Positions 1-7,212 of a stretch of 21,068 nt of DNA are shown piece after piece. The notes below the pieces were generated by a model. That model did no database searches. It was not told the DNA's origin and saw nothing but the letters and a program-made list of their open reading frames with translations. The position numbers and the translations under genes were made by a program. Within the stretch, counting starts at the first letter, position 1; each line of letters opens with the position of its first letter. The stretch is from a virus (lineage: Duplodnaviria > Heunggongvirae > Uroviricota > Caudoviricetes), in the IMG/VR virus record IMGVR_UViG_2778260996_000004. One strand, 5' to 3'.

Positions 1-55
1 GCACCACCCCGTCAGTAGCTGAACAGGAGGGACAGCTGATAGAAACAGAAGCCAC
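1..55 (-). CDS. insA: IS1 InsA, N-terminal fragment (truncated by window edge)
   Basis: Minus-strand translation from GTG (revcomp of 53-55) gives VASVSISCPSCSATDGVV, matching the InsA N-terminus as I recall it. Confidence 0.7.
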   Translation of the reverse strand, partial: MASVSISCPSCSATDGVV

Positions 56-110
56 TGGAGCACCTCAAAAACACCATCATACACTAAATCAGTAAGTTGG
101 CAGCATCACC
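1..110 (-). mobile_element. IS1 insertion sequence, left end (about 110 bp of a 768-bp element; remainder lies upstream of the window)
   Basis: Minus-strand reading of 1-110 is GGTGATGCTGCCAACTTACTGATTTAGTGTATGATGG...CTGACGGGGTGGTGC, which I recognise from memory as the IS1 left terminal inverted repeat plus insA leader (the same segment survives in Tn9/pACYC-type vectors). IR terminus at 110. No search run. Confidence 0.85.
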
Positions 111-121
111 GGGAGGTTATT

Positions 122-739
122 ATGGATAAAAATGTAGAGCATGTATTAGTTGATGCAATTGAAAATAAGCAATCTTTAACAGTCGTTTACTTAGGAGGGA
201 GCCAGCCCGGAACATTAAGGAATATTTCTCCGATTAGTATAAATGGGGATAAGTTGCGGGCAAGATGCCATAGTTCTGGAGCAGTAAAGGTTTTCAATCT
301 TGGGAAAATACAGTTACCCAGTGACTCCTGCGCGGTATCTATGCATTATGGAGATTTAGAAGTTAAAGCTTATGAGACGATGCAGAGCGTAAATGACAAC
401 TTTCATGCCCTTTATCCTGAAGGACGATGGGGTGTTGATTTTAATGAGCATCGCTTTGCTTTATTTGATTTTTTTAAAAACGGGAAACGAAAAAAAACGG
501 CATTTATGGCAATTGAGTTCAGGGAAAGAGATGAAGAGAAAATAATAACAGGTGTAACAATTGATATTGGTATATCTGGAACAGTGATTTCTGAGAAATC
601 CCGAATCCCAAAAAGACGACCATGGGTAGTGGTTGGTCCCGAACACGGAGAATACAGTACTTATTCAACTTTGGACAAGGCTGCTACAGCGTTTTTTGAG
701 AGGCTTTCGTTGATAGCATCCGGCCTGGAAGATAATTGA
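122..739 (+). CDS. hypothetical protein, 205 aa, AT-rich orphan/cargo gene; possible N-terminal SH3-like (WYL-like) beta-barrel; function unknown
   Basis: Intact ORF with GGGAGG (111-116) 5 nt before ATG 122; followed by an intrinsic terminator; composition visibly more AT-rich than the rest of the window (my rough estimate about 40% GC against more than 50% elsewhere). No family recognised. Confidence 0.75.
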   Translation: MDKNVEHVLVDAIENKQSLTVVYLGGSQPGTLRNISPISINGDKLRARCHSSGAVKVFNLGKIQLPSDSCAVSMHYGDLEVKAYETMQSVNDNFHALYPEGRWGVDFNEHRFALFDFFKNGKRKKTAFMAIEFRERDEEKIITGVTIDIGISGTVISEKSRIPKRRPWVVVGPEHGEYSTYSTLDKAATAFFERLSLIASGLEDN

Positions 740-868
740 TTTTATGTTTGGTATTCAGAGTTCGCCGTGCTTAAGAAAGTCAAGATTCTAAAAATACTGA
801 ATGAGCTACTTGTGTTATAACAAAAATGCTATTAGTGTGTTAAGAGTGGTTACTTCGCCACACAACTT

Positions 869-2837: not shown

Positions 2838-3314
2838 ATGCAGGTACTAAATTCCCAGCGTAAAGCTTTCCTCGATATGTTGGCGTGGTCAGAAGGAACG
2901 GATAACGGGCGACAGCCAACCCGCAATCACGGCTACGACGTTATTGTAGGTGGTGAGTTATTCACGGATTACTCCGATCATCCTCGCAAACTTGTCACGC
3001 TAAACCCCAAACTCAAATCAACAGCCGCCGGACGTTACCAGCTTCTTTCACGCTGGTGGGATGCTTACCGTAAACAGCTTGGCCTGAAAGATTTTTCTCC
3101 AGAAAGCCAGGACGCTGTAGCTCTGCAGCAGATTAAAGAGCGTGGCGCTTTACCGATGATTGATCGCGGTGATATTCGTCAGGCTATCGACCGTTGCAGC
3201 AATATCTGGGCTTCACTACCGGGCGCTGGTTATGGTCAGTTCGAGCATAAAGTTGACAGCCTGATTGCAAAATTCAAAGAAGCAGGCGGAACGGTCAGAG
3301 AGATTGAGGTATGA
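2838..3314 (+). CDS. R: endolysin, lambda R-type lytic transglycosylase
   Basis: 158 aa, near-identical to lambda R as I recall it ([22 protein letters not shown]...GTVREI.V); AAGGAG RBS at 2826-2831. Confidence 0.95.
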
Positions 3315-3778
3315 GCAGAGTAACCGCGATTATCTCCGCTCTGGTTATTTGTATCATCGCCTGCCTGTCATGGGCTGTTAATCATTACCGTGATAACGCC
3401 ATCGCCTACAAAGAACAGCGTGATAAAAAAGTCAGTGAGCTGAAGCAGGCGACCGCCACCATCGCTGACATGCAGCAGCGTCAGCGTGATGTTGCTGCGA
3501 TCGATGCAAAATACACGAAGGAGTTAGCCGATGCGAAAACTGAAAATGAAACTCTGCGCGCTGATGTTGCCGCTGGTCGTAAGCGCCTGCGGGTCAATGC
3601 CAGTTGCTCCGCAGCCGTGCGTGAAGCCACCGGACCCACCAGCATGGATAATGCAACCAGCCCCCGACTGGCAGACACCGCTGAACGGGATTATTTCACC
3701 CTCAGAGAACGGTTGATGACGATGCAGAAGCAACTGGAAGGGGCGCAGGAATATATCCGCACCCAGCGCATTAAGTAG
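3311..3778 (+). CDS. Rz: i-spanin Rz
   Basis: 155 aa, strongly lambda-Rz-like ([16 protein letters not shown]...); start overlaps the R stop (GTATGA). Confidence 0.9.
3531..3716 (+). CDS. Rz1: o-spanin Rz1 (lipoprotein), embedded in Rz in the +1 frame
   Basis: 61 aa; signal peptide with lipobox-like LVVSAC, proline-rich mature part ([30 protein letters not shown]) matching lambda Rz1; AAGGAG RBS at 3517-3522. Confidence 0.85.
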
Positions 3779-4162
3779 ATGGAGAAAAAACACGAATCTG
3801 TGGTTTTTACTGAGCGCGGTGTACACGGTGGAACATATGGCGGGAAGTTTGTTGCTTATGATTATGCAGCATGGCTAAACCCCGGATTTAAATATGCAGC
3901 CTATAAAGTCCTGGATGACTACTTCACCGGAGAACTTCAGCATCGCAACAGCTTAAGTGCGCAGCTCAATATGAAGTGTCATGAGTTTGATCAGAAAAAA
4001 GATATGGCGAGCTTCTGTGGACAAGGGCTGGCGGCATGGCGCTATACGAAGCCAGTGTTGGTCGCTGAGATTAACTCCCTGGCTAACCAGCTGCAGATAA
4101 CGATCCCCGGGCTGTCCGGTATTTGCCGGTATGAAATTACCGGAAGGCGCGGTCGTTACTGA
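3779..4162 (+). CDS. hypothetical protein, 127 aa, possible KilA-N/APSES-type DNA-binding domain
   Basis: ATG 3779 immediately follows the Rz stop (TAGATG). Motif GTYGGKFVAYDYAAWLNPGFKYAAYKVL resembles the KilA-N pattern from memory; no SD evident. Confidence 0.45.
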   Translation: MEKKHESVVFTERGVHGGTYGGKFVAYDYAAWLNPGFKYAAYKVLDDYFTGELQHRNSLSAQLNMKCHEFDQKKDMASFCGQGLAAWRYTKPVLVAEINSLANQLQITIPGLSGICRYEITGRRGRY

Positions 4163-4419
4163 GTAACAGCAGGCATTACAGCAGCCCTTCACTGAGGGGC
4201 TGCGATAATGTGAGGAATAAAAAACCGGCAGGGGAAATCCATTGAAGATTTGCCGGTGGCAAAAGATGGCCATGCTTTTAACCTTAGTAGCAGAGTTACG
4301 GAGTTCAACAACGACCGTCGCCGTTATCTTGCTGAAAGGCGTTTCAATGATTTTCATCAATTTATTCATCAGCAATGGTGATAATCACTCTCATTTTGGC
4401 GGGTCCTTCCGGTGGGGTG

Positions 4420-4450
4420 GCCTGCCACGGGGCGGGAGCGGCGCGGAAAA
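4420..4450. other. candidate cohesive-end site (cosN-like), with the AT-rich region 4450-4615 as candidate cosB/IHF region
   Basis: ACGGGGCGGGAGCGGCGCGG (4427-4446) shares the ACGGGGCGG core with lambda cosN as I recall it; lies about 170 bp upstream of the terminase small-subunit start and is followed by a strongly AT-rich stretch. Confidence 0.35.
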
Positions 4451-4615
4451 AGGCTAGTTTTTGAAATTTCATTCGTCATCACCACTACTGTAATGCATTG
4501 ATATTGCATTAGTTTTATTTTTATGGTGTCGATTTTGATTGTTTTTTGTTCATCACTAACACCGTTTGCCTAAAGTTGTTCGCAAGATGCATGTTTAAAA
4601 CATTCTGGAGCGGGT

Positions 4616-5110
4616 ATGGATCAAGAGTTAAAAAATCTGACGCTGAATATCAGTCAACTGGCGGCACTGTCAGGTGTACATCGCCAGACTGCTGCGGCAA
4701 GGCTGCAAAATCTACCCGTTGCAGGGGGGCATGAAAGCAACCTCAAGCTTTATCGGGTGGTTGATATTGTGTCGGCATTTCTGGCATTACCACCGCCGGT
4801 TGCAGAAGGCGAAATGGACGCGCATGAGCGCAAAGCCTGGTATCAGTCTGAACGTGAGCGTCTTAAGTTCGAACAGGAAACGGCACAACTCATTCCGGCC
4901 AGTGATGTCAGACGGGAGTTTGCCATCTGGGCAAAAGCGGTCGTGCAGGTACTGGAGACATTACCGGATATTCTGGAACGTGACTGCGGTCTGCAGCCTG
5001 CCGCTGTGAGCCGTGTTCAGTCCATTATTGATGATCTGCGCGATCAGATAGCCCTGCGGGTGACCGAAGCAGGTGCGGATGATGAGGAGGAATTACAGCA
5101 GGAGGAGTAA
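4616..5110 (+). CDS. terminase small subunit
   Basis: 164 aa; position immediately upstream of and overlapping the large terminase (TAATG); N-terminal HTH-like segment (LTLNISQLAALSGVHRQTAAARL); acidic C-terminus. Confidence 0.7.
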   Translation: MDQELKNLTLNISQLAALSGVHRQTAAARLQNLPVAGGHESNLKLYRVVDIVSAFLALPPPVAEGEMDAHERKAWYQSERERLKFEQETAQLIPASDVRREFAIWAKAVVQVLETLPDILERDCGLQPAAVSRVQSIIDDLRDQIALRVTEAGADDEEELQQEE

Positions 5111-7212
5111 TGCTGAATCAGGAAACCGCAAAGGCAGCACGAACCGATTCAGGTTATATCCTTCGCGCACCGAGACGAATGCGGGTTGCTGATGCCGTTG
5201 CTCAGTATATGCGGGTGCCCATGGGGGCAGGGAACTCAGTCCCGTGGGATCCGCTGGTGGCACCGTATGTTATTGAGCCGATGAACTGCCTGGCCTCGCG
5301 TGAATACGACGCAGTGATATTTGTTGGTCCGGCACGAACCGGCAAGACTATCGGCCTGATTGACGGCTGGGTGATTTACAACGTGATTTGCGATCCTGCG
5401 GATATGCTGATCATTCAGATGACGGAGGAAAAAGCCCGCGAACACTCCAAAAAACGACTTGCCAGAACGTTTCGCGTCAGCCCGGAAGTGGTCAGTCGCC
5501 TGAGTCCGAACAAAAATGACAACAACGTTTATGACAGAACATTCCTTGCTGGCAACTACCTGAAAATCGGCTGGCCGTCAGTCAATATCATGTCCTCATC
5601 AGATTATAAATGCGTGGCGCTGACGGATTATGACCGTTTTCCGGAAGATATTGATGGCGAGGGGGATGCCTTCTCTCTTGCCTCAAAACGTACCACCACA
5701 TTTATGTCCAGTGGTATGACGCTGGTGGAGAGTTCCCCCGGCAGGGATGTGAAGGATGTGAAATGGCGACGGACTTCACCGCATGAGGCTCCACCAACCA
5801 CGGGGATACTGTCACTCTATAACCGTGGCGATCGACGTCGCTGGTACTGGCCCTGCCCACACTGTGGTGAGTATTTTCAGCCCTGCGGCGATGTGGTTGC
5901 TGGTTTCCGTGATATTGCCGATCCTGTGCTGGCAAGTGAGGCGGCTTATATTCAGTGTCCTTCCTGTTCAGGACGGATTATGCCTGAACAAAAACGTGAG
6001 CTGAACGGACGTGGGGTCTGGTTGCGGGATGGTGAATCCATCAATGCGGATGGCAGTCGTTATGGTGATCCCCGACGCTCACGTATTGCGTCATTCTGGA
6101 TGGAGGGTCCGGCAGCTGCTTACCAGACACTCTCGCAACTCGTTTACAAACTGCTTACTGCAGAACAGGAATACGAGACAACCGGAAGTGAAGAAACACT
6201 CAAGACGGTTATCAATACCGACTGGGGATTACCTTATCTTCCCCGTGCCAGCATGGAGCAACGAAAAAGTGAACTGCTTGAGCAGCGGGCAGAGCCAGTT
6301 CCTTCCCGCAGTGTGCCGGATGGCGTTAATTTCCTGGTGGCGACAGTTGATGTGCAGGCGGGACGTCATCGCCGTTTTGTGGTTCAGGTAACGGGCTATG
6401 GCAGCCGTGGCGAACGCTGGATTATTGATCGTTACAACATCACGCAGTCATTGCGCGGTGACAGCGACGGGGAGAGCCAGCGAATTGATCCGGCCAGCTA
6501 TCCGGAAGACTGGGATGTCCTGCTGACGGATGTTTTTCATAAAAGCTGGCCGCTGGCCTCCGATCCTTCTCAACAAATGCGACTGATGGCAATGGCGGTG
6601 GATTCCGGCGGTGAAGACGGGGTCACTGATAATGCCTATAAATTCTGGCGTCGTTGCCGTCGTGATGGCCTTGGTAAACGTATTTACTTGTTTAAGGGCG
6701 ACAGCATCCGGCGCGCAAAACTGATCACCCGTACATTCCCTGATAACACCGGACGAACGGGCCGACGGGCGCAGGCCGCAGGTGATGTGCCGCTCTGGCT
6801 TCTTCAGACGGATGCCCTGAAAGACCGGGTGAATAACGCGTTATGGCGTGACTCTCCAGGTCCCGGCTATGTGCATTTCCCTGACTGGCTGGGGAGCTGG
6901 TTTTACGACGAACTGACGTATGAAGAGCGGAGCAGTGACGGGAAATGGAGTAAGCCGGGTCGCGGTGCCAACGAAGCTTTTGACCTGATGGTGTATGCCG
7001 AGGCTCTGGTCATTCTGCATGGATACGAAAAGATCCGCTGGCCGGATGCACCGGAATGGGCGAGCCGGGAAACCTGGCTGGAGTGTGTCCCGGACAGTAC
7101 CAAACCGTCACCCTCACCGGAACCGGTATCCACGCCTGTTAAAAAACAAAAACGGAAGAAAACAGTAACTGACGATGTTAACCCCTGGCTGACTTCCGGA
7201 GGATGGTTATGA
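5110..7212 (+). CDS. terminase large subunit, GpA family
   Basis: 700 aa; Walker-A-like GPARTGKT; Cys motifs CPHCGEYF...CPSC; position between small terminase and portal. Confidence 0.9.
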   Translation: MLNQETAKAARTDSGYILRAPRRMRVADAVAQYMRVPMGAGNSVPWDPLVAPYVIEPMNCLASREYDAVIFVGPARTGKTIGLIDGWVIYNVICDPADMLIIQMTEEKAREHSKKRLARTFRVSPEVVSRLSPNKNDNNVYDRTFLAGNYLKIGWPSVNIMSSSDYKCVALTDYDRFPEDIDGEGDAFSLASKRTTTFMSSGMTLVESSPGRDVKDVKWRRTSPHEAPPTTGILSLYNRGDRRRWYWPCPHCGEYFQPCGDVVAGFRDIADPVLASEAAYIQCPSCSGRIMPEQKRELNGRGVWLRDGESINADGSRYGDPRRSRIASFWMEGPAAAYQTLSQLVYKLLTAEQEYETTGSEETLKTVINTDWGLPYLPRASMEQRKSELLEQRAEPVPSRSVPDGVNFLVATVDVQAGRHRRFVVQVTGYGSRGERWIIDRYNITQSLRGDSDGESQRIDPASYPEDWDVLLTDVFHKSWPLASDPSQQMRLMAMAVDSGGEDGVTDNAYKFWRRCRRDGLGKRIYLFKGDSIRRAKLITRTFPDNTGRTGRRAQAAGDVPLWLLQTDALKDRVNNALWRDSPGPGYVHFPDWLGSWFYDELTYEERSSDGKWSKPGRGANEAFDLMVYAEALVILHGYEKIRWPDAPEWASRETWLECVPDSTKPSPSPEPVSTPVKKQKRKKTVTDDVNPWLTSGGWL

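What the first reader, a model, noticed from the sequence alone, without database searches (positions are those of the whole stretch)
4420..4615. Candidate cosN-like site and AT-rich terminase-binding region
ACGGGGCGGGAGCGGCGCGG shares its first 9 nt with the lambda cosN region as I recall it but diverges across the remainder, so the cohesive ends may differ from lambda. The spacing to the small terminase start (about 170 bp) and the adjacent AT-rich tract fit a cosB/IHF region. An intact cos would indicate the prophage is still packageable.
Basis: partly seen in the sequence, partly recalled or inferred. Interest (0 to 1): 0.45.

Follow-up and report, generated by a model that had tools for sequence, protein, structure and literature searches.

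The report
Lambda-type cos packaging site of prophage
This stretch is the DNA-packaging (cos) site of a lambda-like E. coli prophage, built like lambda's but with different sticky ends. The same site occurs in known, viable phages, so it is a correct but ordinary finding.

Summary
ACGGGGCGGGAGCGGCGCGG lies at 4427-4446, its first 9 nt equal lambda's cosN junction, and a 29-31% GC tract runs on to the small-terminase start at 4616.

It is a lambda-type cos site:
- cosQ GGGTCCT at 4401-4407, identical to lambda.
- cosN at 4428-4443, with a predicted 12-nt 5' end GGGCGGGAGCGG (4430-4441).
- A conserved I2-like spacer at 4444-4470.
- A cosB with candidate R3 (4475-4484), an IHF site (4491-4503, minus strand), inverted R2 (4524-4533) and R1 (4549-4558).

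The predicted end differs from lambda only at positions 7, 8, 9, 11 and 12. That is the half the Feiss laboratory reports as naturally variable.

The GenBank records of phages cdtI and Tritos begin and end exactly at the predicted nick. Plaque-forming phage mEp460 has an identical cosN and a near-identical cosB.

The small terminase is Pfam DUF1441, not Nu1. Its modelled N-terminus is a winged helix-turn-helix whose best structural match is lambda TerS.

No virion ends have been measured for this variant as far as I could find, and the R sites are inferred from comparison with relatives. "Intact cos means packageable" overreaches.

Verdict: new member of a known kind, low interest.

The parts
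4401..4407 (+). cosQ (GGGTCCT), the packaging-termination element. It starts 29 nt before the predicted top-strand nick.
   Evidence: Identical to lambda 48473-48479, which starts 30 nt before the nick. Invariant in 73 unique relatives with >=99% identical TerS. The conserved block begins here and the DNA to its left is mosaic.
4428..4443 (.). cosN, the nicking site: CG|GGGCGGGAGCGG|CG. The predicted nicks are 4429|4430 on the top strand and 4441|4442 on the bottom strand. The predicted 12-nt 5' cohesive end is 4430-4441.
   Evidence: Positional homology with lambda. The left half (1-6) and both flanking CG pairs are identical to lambda; differences are at 7, 8, 9, 11 and 12. The cdtI and Tritos records start at GGGCGGGAGCGT and end at ...CTGCCACG. 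mEp460 has the identical sequence. Two-fold symmetry is 8/16 and 12/22 about 4435|4436. Position 12 is G in 14 and T in 59 of 73 relatives.
4444..4470 (+). Conserved spacer between cosN and cosB (CGGAAAAAGGCTAGTTTTTGAAATTTC). It occupies the position of lambda's I2 segment.
   Evidence: Conserved from E. coli to Enterobacter, Providencia and Gifsy-2 relatives (invariant ATTTTTG...TTT) and partly in lambda. It is shared with cdtI and Tritos up to bp +33, after which their cosB diverges.
4475..4484 (+). Candidate R3, a small-terminase binding site (GTCATCACCA, core CATCACCAC), at bp +46 to +55.
   Evidence: Matches R1 at 8/10 in direct orientation. The homologous position holds a related motif in relatives with 66-86% identical TerS. 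It is replaced by an unrelated sequence in cdtI and Tritos, whose TerS recognition helix differs. Inferred, not shown.
4491..4503 (-). I1-like IHF site (TATCAATGCATTA on the minus strand), followed on the plus strand by a T-rich tract at 4513-4522.
   Evidence: The only exact WATCAANNNNTTR match in the 21-kb window (0.56 expected anywhere). The strongly variable positions 4495 and 4496 fall in the consensus NNNN, while the specified positions are conserved. The same motif sits at +64 to +76 in cdtI, where the flanking R sequences differ.
4524..4533 (-). Candidate R2, inverted (TGGTGTCGAT; reverse complement ATCGACACCA).
   Evidence: GTGTCGA is conserved across genera. In relatives the best inverted match to R1 lies at this same position: Gifsy-2 10/10, PhiR47_1 8/10, JGI contig 8/10, L099 8/10. 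In the window itself it is only 6/10, which is not significant alone.
4541..4558 (+). T-run plus candidate R1 (TTTTTTGT TCATCACTA; R1 is 4549-4558).
   Evidence: The most conserved cosB block in alignment A3: GTTTTTTGTTCATCAC is nearly invariant from E. coli to Providencia.
4561..4615 (+). Leader between R1 and the TerS start, carrying the ribosome-binding site GGAG at 4607-4610.
   Evidence: Conserved in E. coli members. It is missing in the Salmonella, Enterobacter and JGI-metagenome relatives, and in one E. coli relative (L103), where the start codon follows R1 directly. No Rfam match and no better-than-chance promoter or terminator.
4616..5110 (+). Small terminase (TerS), Pfam DUF1441, with an N-terminal winged helix-turn-helix at residues ~9-56.
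   Evidence: PF07278, E 2.7e-41. The AF2 model has pLDDT 79.9 with a beta-alpha-alpha-wing-alpha N-terminus. The Foldseek top hit is 6hn7_B, lambda TerS 1-98 (identity of the chain from PMC6739421). hhalign aligns residues 8-55 to Nu1 1-50.
5110..7212 (+). Large terminase (TerL) of the lambda gpA family, the enzyme expected to nick cosN.
   Evidence: GpA_ATPase E 8.5e-72 and GpA_nuclease E 1.1e-85. 25% identity to lambda gpA over 623 aa, E 6e-19.

Best explanation
The region 4401-4615 is the cohesive-end site (cos) of a lambdoid prophage, organised like lambda's.

Proposed mechanism:
1. The DUF1441-type small terminase binds through its N-terminal winged helix-turn-helix to short repeats in the AT-rich cosB: R3 at about 4475-4484, inverted R2 at about 4524-4533 and R1 at about 4549-4558.
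2. Host IHF bends the DNA at 4491-4503, between R3 and R2.
3. This anchors the gpA-family large terminase on cosN (4428-4443).
4. The large terminase makes nicks 12 bp apart, at 4429|4430 on the top strand and 4441|4442 on the bottom strand. This leaves 5'-GGGCGGGAGCGG cohesive ends.
5. Packaging proceeds rightwards into the terminase and head genes.
6. It ends at the next cos, where cosQ (4401-4407) is needed for the terminal cut.

Shown here: the sequence homology, the positions, and the protein family and fold.

Inferred from lambda: the exact nick positions, the polarity of the overhang, and binding of TerS and IHF.
For: cosQ and cosN:
- cosQ is 7/7 identical to lambda, at 29 against 30 nt from the nick.
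- The cosN left half is 6/6 identical, and both flanking CG pairs and the following CGCGG match lambda.
- All five differences lie in positions 7-12. Feiss et al. report that half as naturally variable, and report cosQ and the flanking CG pairs as conserved (PMC4669245).

Database records:
- The cdtI and Tritos records open exactly at this nick.
- The related phage LLS record annotates bp 1-12 as a 5' cohesive site at the homologous point.
- mEp460, phi458 and 569R4 are propagated phages carrying the same cosN and cosB.

Proteins and spacing:
- TerL is gpA-type.
- The TerS N-terminus is a wHTH whose best match is lambda TerS.
- The TerS start is at +187 against +191 in lambda.

cosB:
- The only IHF consensus in the window is here, and its strongly variable positions fall on N positions.
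- R3, R2 and R1 blocks are conserved at fixed positions across genera, and R2 and R1 change together between lineages.
- cosB and the TerS recognition helix are swapped together in cdtI and Tritos, while cosQ-cosN is kept.
Against: - I found no measured virion ends for this cosN variant. The cdtI paper was not available, so the record boundaries may rest on analogy with lambda.
- Inside the window the R2-R1 similarity is only 6/10, with a shuffle p of about 0.7. An 8/10 to 10/13 direct repeat is expected by chance in an AT-rich 170-bp tract.
- The cosN two-fold symmetry is modest: 8/16 is reached by 11% of window positions and 12/22 by 3%.
- TerS shows no BLAST similarity to Nu1. The Foldseek E-value is 0.058 and the hhalign probability is only 16-23%.
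Confidence: 0.88

Rival explanations
1. The site is a sequence-intact but biologically idle cos. The prophage is defective elsewhere, for example in induction, excision or replication, so the site is never used unless a related helper phage supplies terminase.
For: Only 21 kb of the prophage is visible. The exact source genome is not among the complete E. coli genomes (best 98.3% identity over 84% coverage), so the regulatory half could not be checked. Many E. coli lambdoid prophages are defective (general knowledge).
Against: The cos-to-TerS block is nearly invariant in 73 unique relatives. It matches plaque-forming phages, and the packaging, head and tail genes in the window are full length. 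An idle site would still be a cos, so this rival concerns activity, not identity.
Confidence: 0.25
2. It is a cos site, but the cut geometry differs from the lambda-based prediction. The nicks could be shifted by a base or two, or the overhang could be other than 12 nt.
For: Five of twelve overhang positions differ from lambda. VT1-Sakai has 11 rather than 12 nt between the conserved CACG and CGCGG, so the length may not be fixed in the family. TerL is only 25% identical to gpA. There is a second imperfect palindrome centred on 4428|4429.
Against: Both flanking CG pairs, the left half and the 12-bp distance between the conserved flanks are kept exactly as in lambda. Independent depositors opened cdtI, Tritos and LLS at the homologous nick.
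Confidence: 0.08
3. The GC-rich 20-mer is a chance resemblance inside a small protein-coding gene (ORF 4242-4457). Similar ORFs are annotated across this spot in phi458, mEp460 and Ayreon. On this view the AT-rich tract is just a promoter or leader for the terminase genes.
For: A 71-aa ORF spans the site. GenBank records annotate hypothetical proteins there. A 9-mer match alone is expected 0.18 times per window.
Against: The ORF has no Pfam hit. Its 5' two-thirds is mosaic and unrelated in relatives, while conservation starts abruptly at cosQ. The composite cosQ+cosN pattern never arose in shuffles. Promoter-like matches are no better than chance (2 found against 0.8 +/- 0.8 expected) and there is no terminator or Rfam hit.
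Confidence: 0.02

Closest known systems
Phage lambda cos (cosQ-cosN-I2-cosB with R3-I1-R2-R1; gpNu1/gpA terminase)
   Same: - Order and spacing of the subsites.
- cosQ is 7/7 identical.
- cosN positions 1-6, the flanking CG pairs and the following CGCGG are identical.
- An IHF site lies between a direct and an inverted repeat.
- TerS starts at +187 against +191.
- TerL is gpA-family and the TerS DNA-binding domain is a wHTH.
   Different: - The cohesive end differs at positions 7, 8, 9, 11 and 12.
- The R-site sequences are unrelated (TCATCAC/TCGACAC-type against CGTTTCC-type).
- R2 and R1 are about 25 bp apart against about 50 bp in lambda.
- TerS belongs to Pfam DUF1441 and has no BLAST similarity to Nu1.
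- TerL is only 25% identical.
cos of phages mEp460, phi458, Ayreon and vB_EcoS-569R4 (same cos module; unannotated in their records)
   Same: mEp460 has the identical cosN (GGGCGGGAGCGG). Its cosB is 94-98% identical and its TerS 99.4% identical. These are propagated phages.
   Different: - phi458 and 569R4 have T at position 12.
- There are a few substitutions around the IHF site.
- The DNA to the left of cosQ is mosaic.
- None of these records marks cos.
Phages cdtI and Tritos (records opened at the homologous nick)
   Same: cosQ, cosN (GGGCGGGAGCGT) and the spacer up to +33 are essentially identical. An IHF consensus lies at the same distance.
   Different: cosB beyond +33 is unrelated, and the N-terminal DNA-binding region of TerS differs (TerS is 42% identical overall). 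This parallels lambda and phage 21, which share cosQ and cosN but differ in packaging specificity.
Gifsy-2, mEp213, LLS and VT1-Sakai cos (DUF1441-TerS lambdoid phages with a ClpP-capsid fusion head)
   Same: The same TerS family (48-59% identical), the same cosB layout, and clear R2/R1 inverted repeats in Gifsy-2. LLS annotates a 12-nt 5' end, GGGCGGCGCGCT.
   Different: - The cohesive-end sequences differ.
- Gifsy-2 has GGTACTC-type sequence in place of GGGTCCT.
- LLS has a shorter cosB.
- VT1-Sakai has 11 nt between the conserved flanks.

Membership tests
[quoted passage not shown] | The cohesive-end sequence resembles lambda's, with the left half conserved and variation confined to bp 7-12. 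| tested here: met
   GGGCGGGAGCGG against GGGCGGCGACCT: 7/12 identical, positions 1-6 all identical, differences at 7, 8, 9, 11 and 12. The expected pattern is from PMC4669245.
[quoted passage not shown] | Physical virion ends are 12-nt 5' overhangs at this position. | not testable with these tools
   There is only indirect support. The cdtI, Tritos and LLS records open at the homologous nick. I found no end-mapping data.
[quoted passage not shown] | A 7-bp cosQ (GGGTCCT) lies about 30 bp upstream of the nick. | tested here: met
   At 4401-4407, starting 29 nt before the nick and identical to lambda. Invariant in 73 relatives.
[quoted passage not shown] | 5'-CG-3' pairs flank both nick positions, and cosN has partial two-fold symmetry. 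| tested here: met
   CG at 4428-4429 and at 4442-4443. Symmetry is 8/16 and 12/22 (lambda 10/16 by the same script). It is only modestly above background.
[quoted passage not shown] | A complex cosB: R3, then the I1 IHF site, then inverted R2, then R1. | tested here: inconclusive
   The IHF consensus is met. R blocks are conserved at fixed positions across genera, and R2 and R1 co-vary in relatives. In the window itself R2 against R1 is 6/10 and not significant. Binding was not tested.
[quoted passage not shown] | A gpA-family large terminase is encoded just downstream. | tested here: met
   PF05876 and PF20454 match at full length. BLASTP to lambda gpA gives E 6e-19.
Pfam Phage_Nu1 (lambda gpNu1 small terminase family) | Sequence membership in the Nu1 family. 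| tested here: not met
   The only Pfam hit is DUF1441, PF07278. BLASTP to Nu1 gives E 20. TerS is therefore not filed as a Nu1-family member.
Pfam Phage_Nu1 (lambda gpNu1 small terminase family) | An N-terminal winged helix-turn-helix DNA-binding domain (works like Nu1). | tested here: met
   The model shows beta-alpha-alpha-wing-alpha at pLDDT 75-87. The Foldseek top hit is lambda TerS 1-98 (probability 0.99, E 0.058, target-normalised TM-score 0.57), followed by MerR-family proteins. hhalign aligns the same segment. The scores are sub-threshold, so this is support rather than proof.
Headful (pac) or HK97-type 3'-overhang packaging | A terminase of the headful or HK97 type, and no lambda-like cosN or cosQ. 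| tested here: not met
   TerL matches only the gpA ATPase and nuclease families, and cosQ and cosN are present.

The most novel reading that the evidence does not exclude
The DUF1441 small terminases and their TCATCAC/TCGACAC-type cosB may form one or more packaging-specificity groups distinct from the lambda, 21 and N15 groups. Their features would be:
- A compact R2-R1 pair about 25 bp apart.
- Recombination joints immediately left of cosQ and right of the I2-like spacer (+33), which let cosB and the TerS DNA-binding domain be exchanged as a cassette.
- A natural G/T polymorphism at cohesive-end position 12, which would regularly produce virions with mismatched ends.
Probability: 0.45. Interest if true: 0.3.

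Novelty: new member of a known kind. Interest (0 to 1): 0.15.

Why it matters
Practical value only.

- It fixes where this prophage's virion genome would begin and end. This helps in orienting and annotating the roughly 29% of complete E. coli genomes (1564 of 5426) that carry this or a related cos module. RefSeq labels its small terminase only as "DUF1441 family protein" and does not mark cos.
- It predicts sticky ends that are incompatible with lambda's.
- It shows the DNA signals (cosQ, left half of cosN) conserved far better than the proteins that read them: TerL is 25% identical and TerS is not alignable by BLAST.

It opens no new question. The subsite logic and the pattern of natural cosN variation are already described by the Feiss laboratory.

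Tried and rejected
- Literature search for the end sequence (GGGCGGGAGCG) found only unrelated G-quadruplex and primer papers.
- The cdtI paper (Asakura 2007) and Vahanian et al. 2017 on cosN natural history are not held. I therefore could not learn whether the cdtI ends were measured, or whether this variant is already catalogued.
- The Ayreon, LF82/Tritos and infant-gut phage papers give no end mapping.
- The single-sequence AF2 model of TerS was useless for the N-terminus, with pLDDT below 50.
- PDB sequence searches gave only sub-threshold hits: an HTH protein (YbaQ, E 0.25) in the profile search and an unrelated acyl carrier protein in the single-sequence search.
- The repeat finder on the region did not report the R candidates. 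It reported only short repeats around the IHF site and near the TerS start.
- Internal repeat statistics cannot establish R sites in the window alone.
- The palindrome TAATGCA-N7-TGCATTA around the IHF site was considered as a protein-binding dyad. I rejected it as a conserved feature because it is a minority allele and relatives have different, non-homologous dyads.
- The exact source genome was not found. The 100% match of the 261-bp core to strain JE86-ST05 lies in a prophage with a different left flank.

Full report
OBSERVATION. I fetched lambda's ends from its GenBank record. It finishes ...GGGTCCTTTCCGGTGATCCGACAGGTTACG and begins GGGCGGCGACCTCGCGGGTTTTCG. The match resumes after the 12-nt end (CGCGG), giving 15 of 20 identical positions. 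A 9-mer alone is weak: 0.18 matches are expected per window and 16 of 100 shuffles had one. The composite GGGTCCT-N(15-30)-CGGGGCGG never appeared in 100 shuffles. About 60% of 100 positions spanning the site are identical to lambda. The tract 4450-4599 is 29-31% GC against about 53% around it. The next gene starts at 4616.

CONTEXT. The window is the late region of a lambdoid prophage:
- Rz at 3311-3778 and an ORF11CD3-domain gene at 3779-4162.
- The non-coding stretch studied here.
- A 164-aa DUF1441 protein at 4616-5110.
- A gpA-type large terminase (ATPase and nuclease domains) at 5110-7212.
- A lambda-family portal and a ClpP-protease/capsid fusion.

Phage records annotate the DUF1441 protein as the small terminase. 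From 4591 onward the window is about 97% identical to the plaque-forming phages mEp460 and Ayreon. It is 96-97% identical over 81-88% of its length to phi458, 569R4 and the PhiR phages.

ANATOMY OF COS.
- cosQ: GGGTCCT at 4401-4407 is identical to lambda 48473-48479. It starts 29 nt before the predicted nick, against 30 nt in lambda.
- cosN: by positional homology the top-strand nick is 4429|4430 and the bottom-strand nick is 4441|4442. The predicted 5' end is GGGCGGGAGCGG.
- Comparison with lambda's GGGCGGCGACCT: positions 1-6 and both flanking CG pairs are the same. Positions 7, 8, 9, 11 and 12 differ.
- This is the pattern Feiss et al. describe for natural lambda-like phages: bp 7-12 vary, while cosQ and the CG pairs at the nicks are conserved (PMC4669245).
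- Symmetry: my script reproduces the published 10/16 two-fold symmetry for lambda. It gives 8/16 and 12/22 for the window about 4435|4436, which is only modestly above background.

INDEPENDENT SUPPORT FOR THE NICK POSITION.
- The GenBank record of phage cdtI begins GGGCGGGAGCGTCGCGG and ends ...GGCCTGCCACG.
- The linear record of phage Tritos, a plaque-forming prophage of strain LF82 (PMC9928086), does the same.
- The record of the related phage LLS annotates bp 1-12 as a 5' single-stranded cohesive site at the homologous place (inferred by its authors, PMC12315714).
- I could not obtain the cdtI paper, so these may be inferences by analogy rather than measurements.
- mEp460 carries exactly GGGCGGGAGCGG|CGCGG with nearly the same cosB. 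phi458, 569R4 and PhiR47_1 carry GGGCGGGAGCGT.

POPULATION VIEW. Eighty IMG/VR loci with >=99% identical TerS gave 73 unique upstream sequences.
- The block from cosQ to the TerS start is almost invariant, whereas DNA to the left of about 4399 is mosaic.
- Cohesive-end position 12 is G in 14 sequences and T in 59.
- A match to 4380-4640 exists in 1564 of 5426 complete E. coli genomes. RefSeq leaves cos unmarked and calls TerS a "DUF1441 family protein".

COSB.
- IHF site: the only exact IHF consensus (WATCAANNNNTTR) in the whole 21-kb window is at 4491-4503 on the minus strand. The two most variable positions there, 4495 and 4496, are N positions of the consensus. cdtI has the same motif at the same distance although its flanking sequence is unrelated.
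- R sites, data used: I fetched upstream regions of TerS homologues that are 48-86% identical, from E. coli, Salmonella, Enterobacter, Providencia, a metagenome and Gifsy-2, and aligned them.
- R sites, conserved blocks: the I2-like spacer ATTTTTG..TTT; CATCACCAC (candidate R3, window 4475-4484); the IHF motif; GTGTCGA (candidate R2, inverted, 4524-4533); and GTTTTTTGTTCATCAC (T-run plus candidate R1, 4549-4558).
- R sites, position: in eight of the ten sequences the best inverted match to R1 lies at the same place, 25 bp upstream.
- R sites, co-variation: the pair changes together between lineages. Gifsy-2 has TTCGACACTG twice (10/10, p<0.001). PhiR47_1 scores 8/10 (p 0.002), a JGI contig 8/10 (p 0.02) and L099 8/10 with TCAACATA in both.
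- R sites, limitation: in the window itself R2 against R1 is only 6/10 and not significant. R3 against R1 is 8/10. The R3-I1-R2-R1 layout is therefore supported by comparison, not by the window alone.
- The layout matches what Murialdo and Feiss state for lambda, phi80, 21 and Gifsy-1 (PMC9026076). Here R2 and R1 are about 25 bp apart rather than about 50 bp.

SMALL TERMINASE.
- It has no BLAST similarity to lambda Nu1, and Pfam places it in DUF1441.
- Profile comparison aligns residues 8-55 with Nu1 residues 1-50, the DNA-binding domain. This is weak (single-comparison E about 1e-3, probability 16-23%).
- An AlphaFold model built on 45 homologues (mean pLDDT 79.9) shows strand-helix-helix-wing-helix at the N-terminus.
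- Its best Foldseek match in the PDB is chain B of 6HN7, which is lambda TerS residues 1-98 (PMC6739421). The scores are probability 0.99, E 0.058 and target-normalised TM-score 0.57. MerR-family regulators follow.
- cdtI and Tritos share cosQ, cosN and the spacer up to +33 with the window. They then have an unrelated cosB and a different helix-turn-helix sequence: HRDTVKKRL against HRQTAAARL. That is the lambda/21 situation, in which cosN is shared but cosB and the TerS DNA-binding domain set the specificity.

ALTERNATIVES.
- Coding ORF: the 71-aa ORF 4242-4457 across the site has no family match. It is not conserved to the left of cosQ in relatives.
- Promoter or RNA: there is no Rfam family, no terminator and no better-than-chance promoter.
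- Defective prophage: whether the prophage is inducible cannot be judged from the window, and the source genome was not found.
- Shifted cut: a shifted cut or a different overhang length cannot be excluded without end mapping. VT1-Sakai has 11 nt between the conserved flanks.

VERDICT. The inference that an intact cos means a packageable prophage goes too far. The site is a further example of a well-described kind. The same module sits, unannotated, in several sequenced viable phages and in over a quarter of complete E. coli genomes.

Noticed in passing
window 4380-4397: GATAATCACTCTCATTTT, just left of cosQ, is shared with lambda 48451-48470 (TGATAATCATTATCA, a near-perfect palindrome that resembles a Fur box) and with VT1-Sakai. 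It is replaced by unrelated DNA in most close relatives. Its function is unknown.
   Followed up: no
L012 (VT1-Sakai) ~750-765: VT1-Sakai has 11 rather than 12 nt between the conserved CACG and CGCGG flanks (GGGCGGGCGGG). This suggests either a shorter overhang or a damaged cosN.
   Followed up: no
L011 (Gifsy-2) ~500-520; L104, L105, L106: Gifsy-2 and the Providencia, Klebsiella aerogenes and JGI relatives carry AAAGGTACTCC where the others have GGGTCCT. cosQ is therefore not invariant across the DUF1441-TerS phages.
   Followed up: partly
L007/L008 (LR595868, mEp460_4F5): This linear record opens 4 nt left of the predicted nick and lacks 3 nt inside the cohesive end (GGGCGGGAGC---GCGG). This looks like an assembly artefact at physical DNA ends.
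   Followed up: no
window 4242-4457; L013 307-432; L014 113-361; L015 139-423: Hypothetical ORFs are annotated over or beside cos in several phage records. mEp460_059 and Ayreon's 'putative late gene regulator' run across cosQ and cosN, and phi458 Orf24 ends just short of cosQ. They are probably not genes, because conservation starts at cosQ regardless of reading frame.
   Followed up: partly
window 4491-4511: The dyad TAATGCA-N7-TGCATTA around the IHF core is a minority allele (G4506 in 7 of 73, T4509 in 9 of 73). phi458 has a different perfect dyad, CCACTGTAAT-N8-ATTACAGTGG, on another centre. This is unexplained.
   Followed up: partly
window 4421-4436: An imperfect palindrome, CCTGCCAC|GGGGCGGG (12/16), is centred one base left of the top-strand nick. 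It is absent from lambda.
   Followed up: no
window 4561-4615: A 55-bp leader between R1 and the TerS start is conserved in E. coli members. It is absent from the Salmonella, Enterobacter and JGI-metagenome relatives, and from one E. coli relative (L103). It contains a 16-nt imperfect palindrome at 4577-4602.
   Followed up: no
window 4441: Cohesive-end position 12 is polymorphic (G in 14, T in 59 of 73 unique sequences) among phages with >=99% identical TerS. Co-infection could therefore yield genomes with mismatched ends, as studied for lambda/N15.
   Followed up: partly
window 1-820: The first ~820 nt lie outside the otherwise colinear matches to related phages and prophages, which begin at about 820. 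When the first 6 kb was searched, nearly all E. coli genomes matched at many places, plasmids included. This hints at a widespread or repeated element somewhere in that stretch. It was not localised or examined.
   Followed up: no
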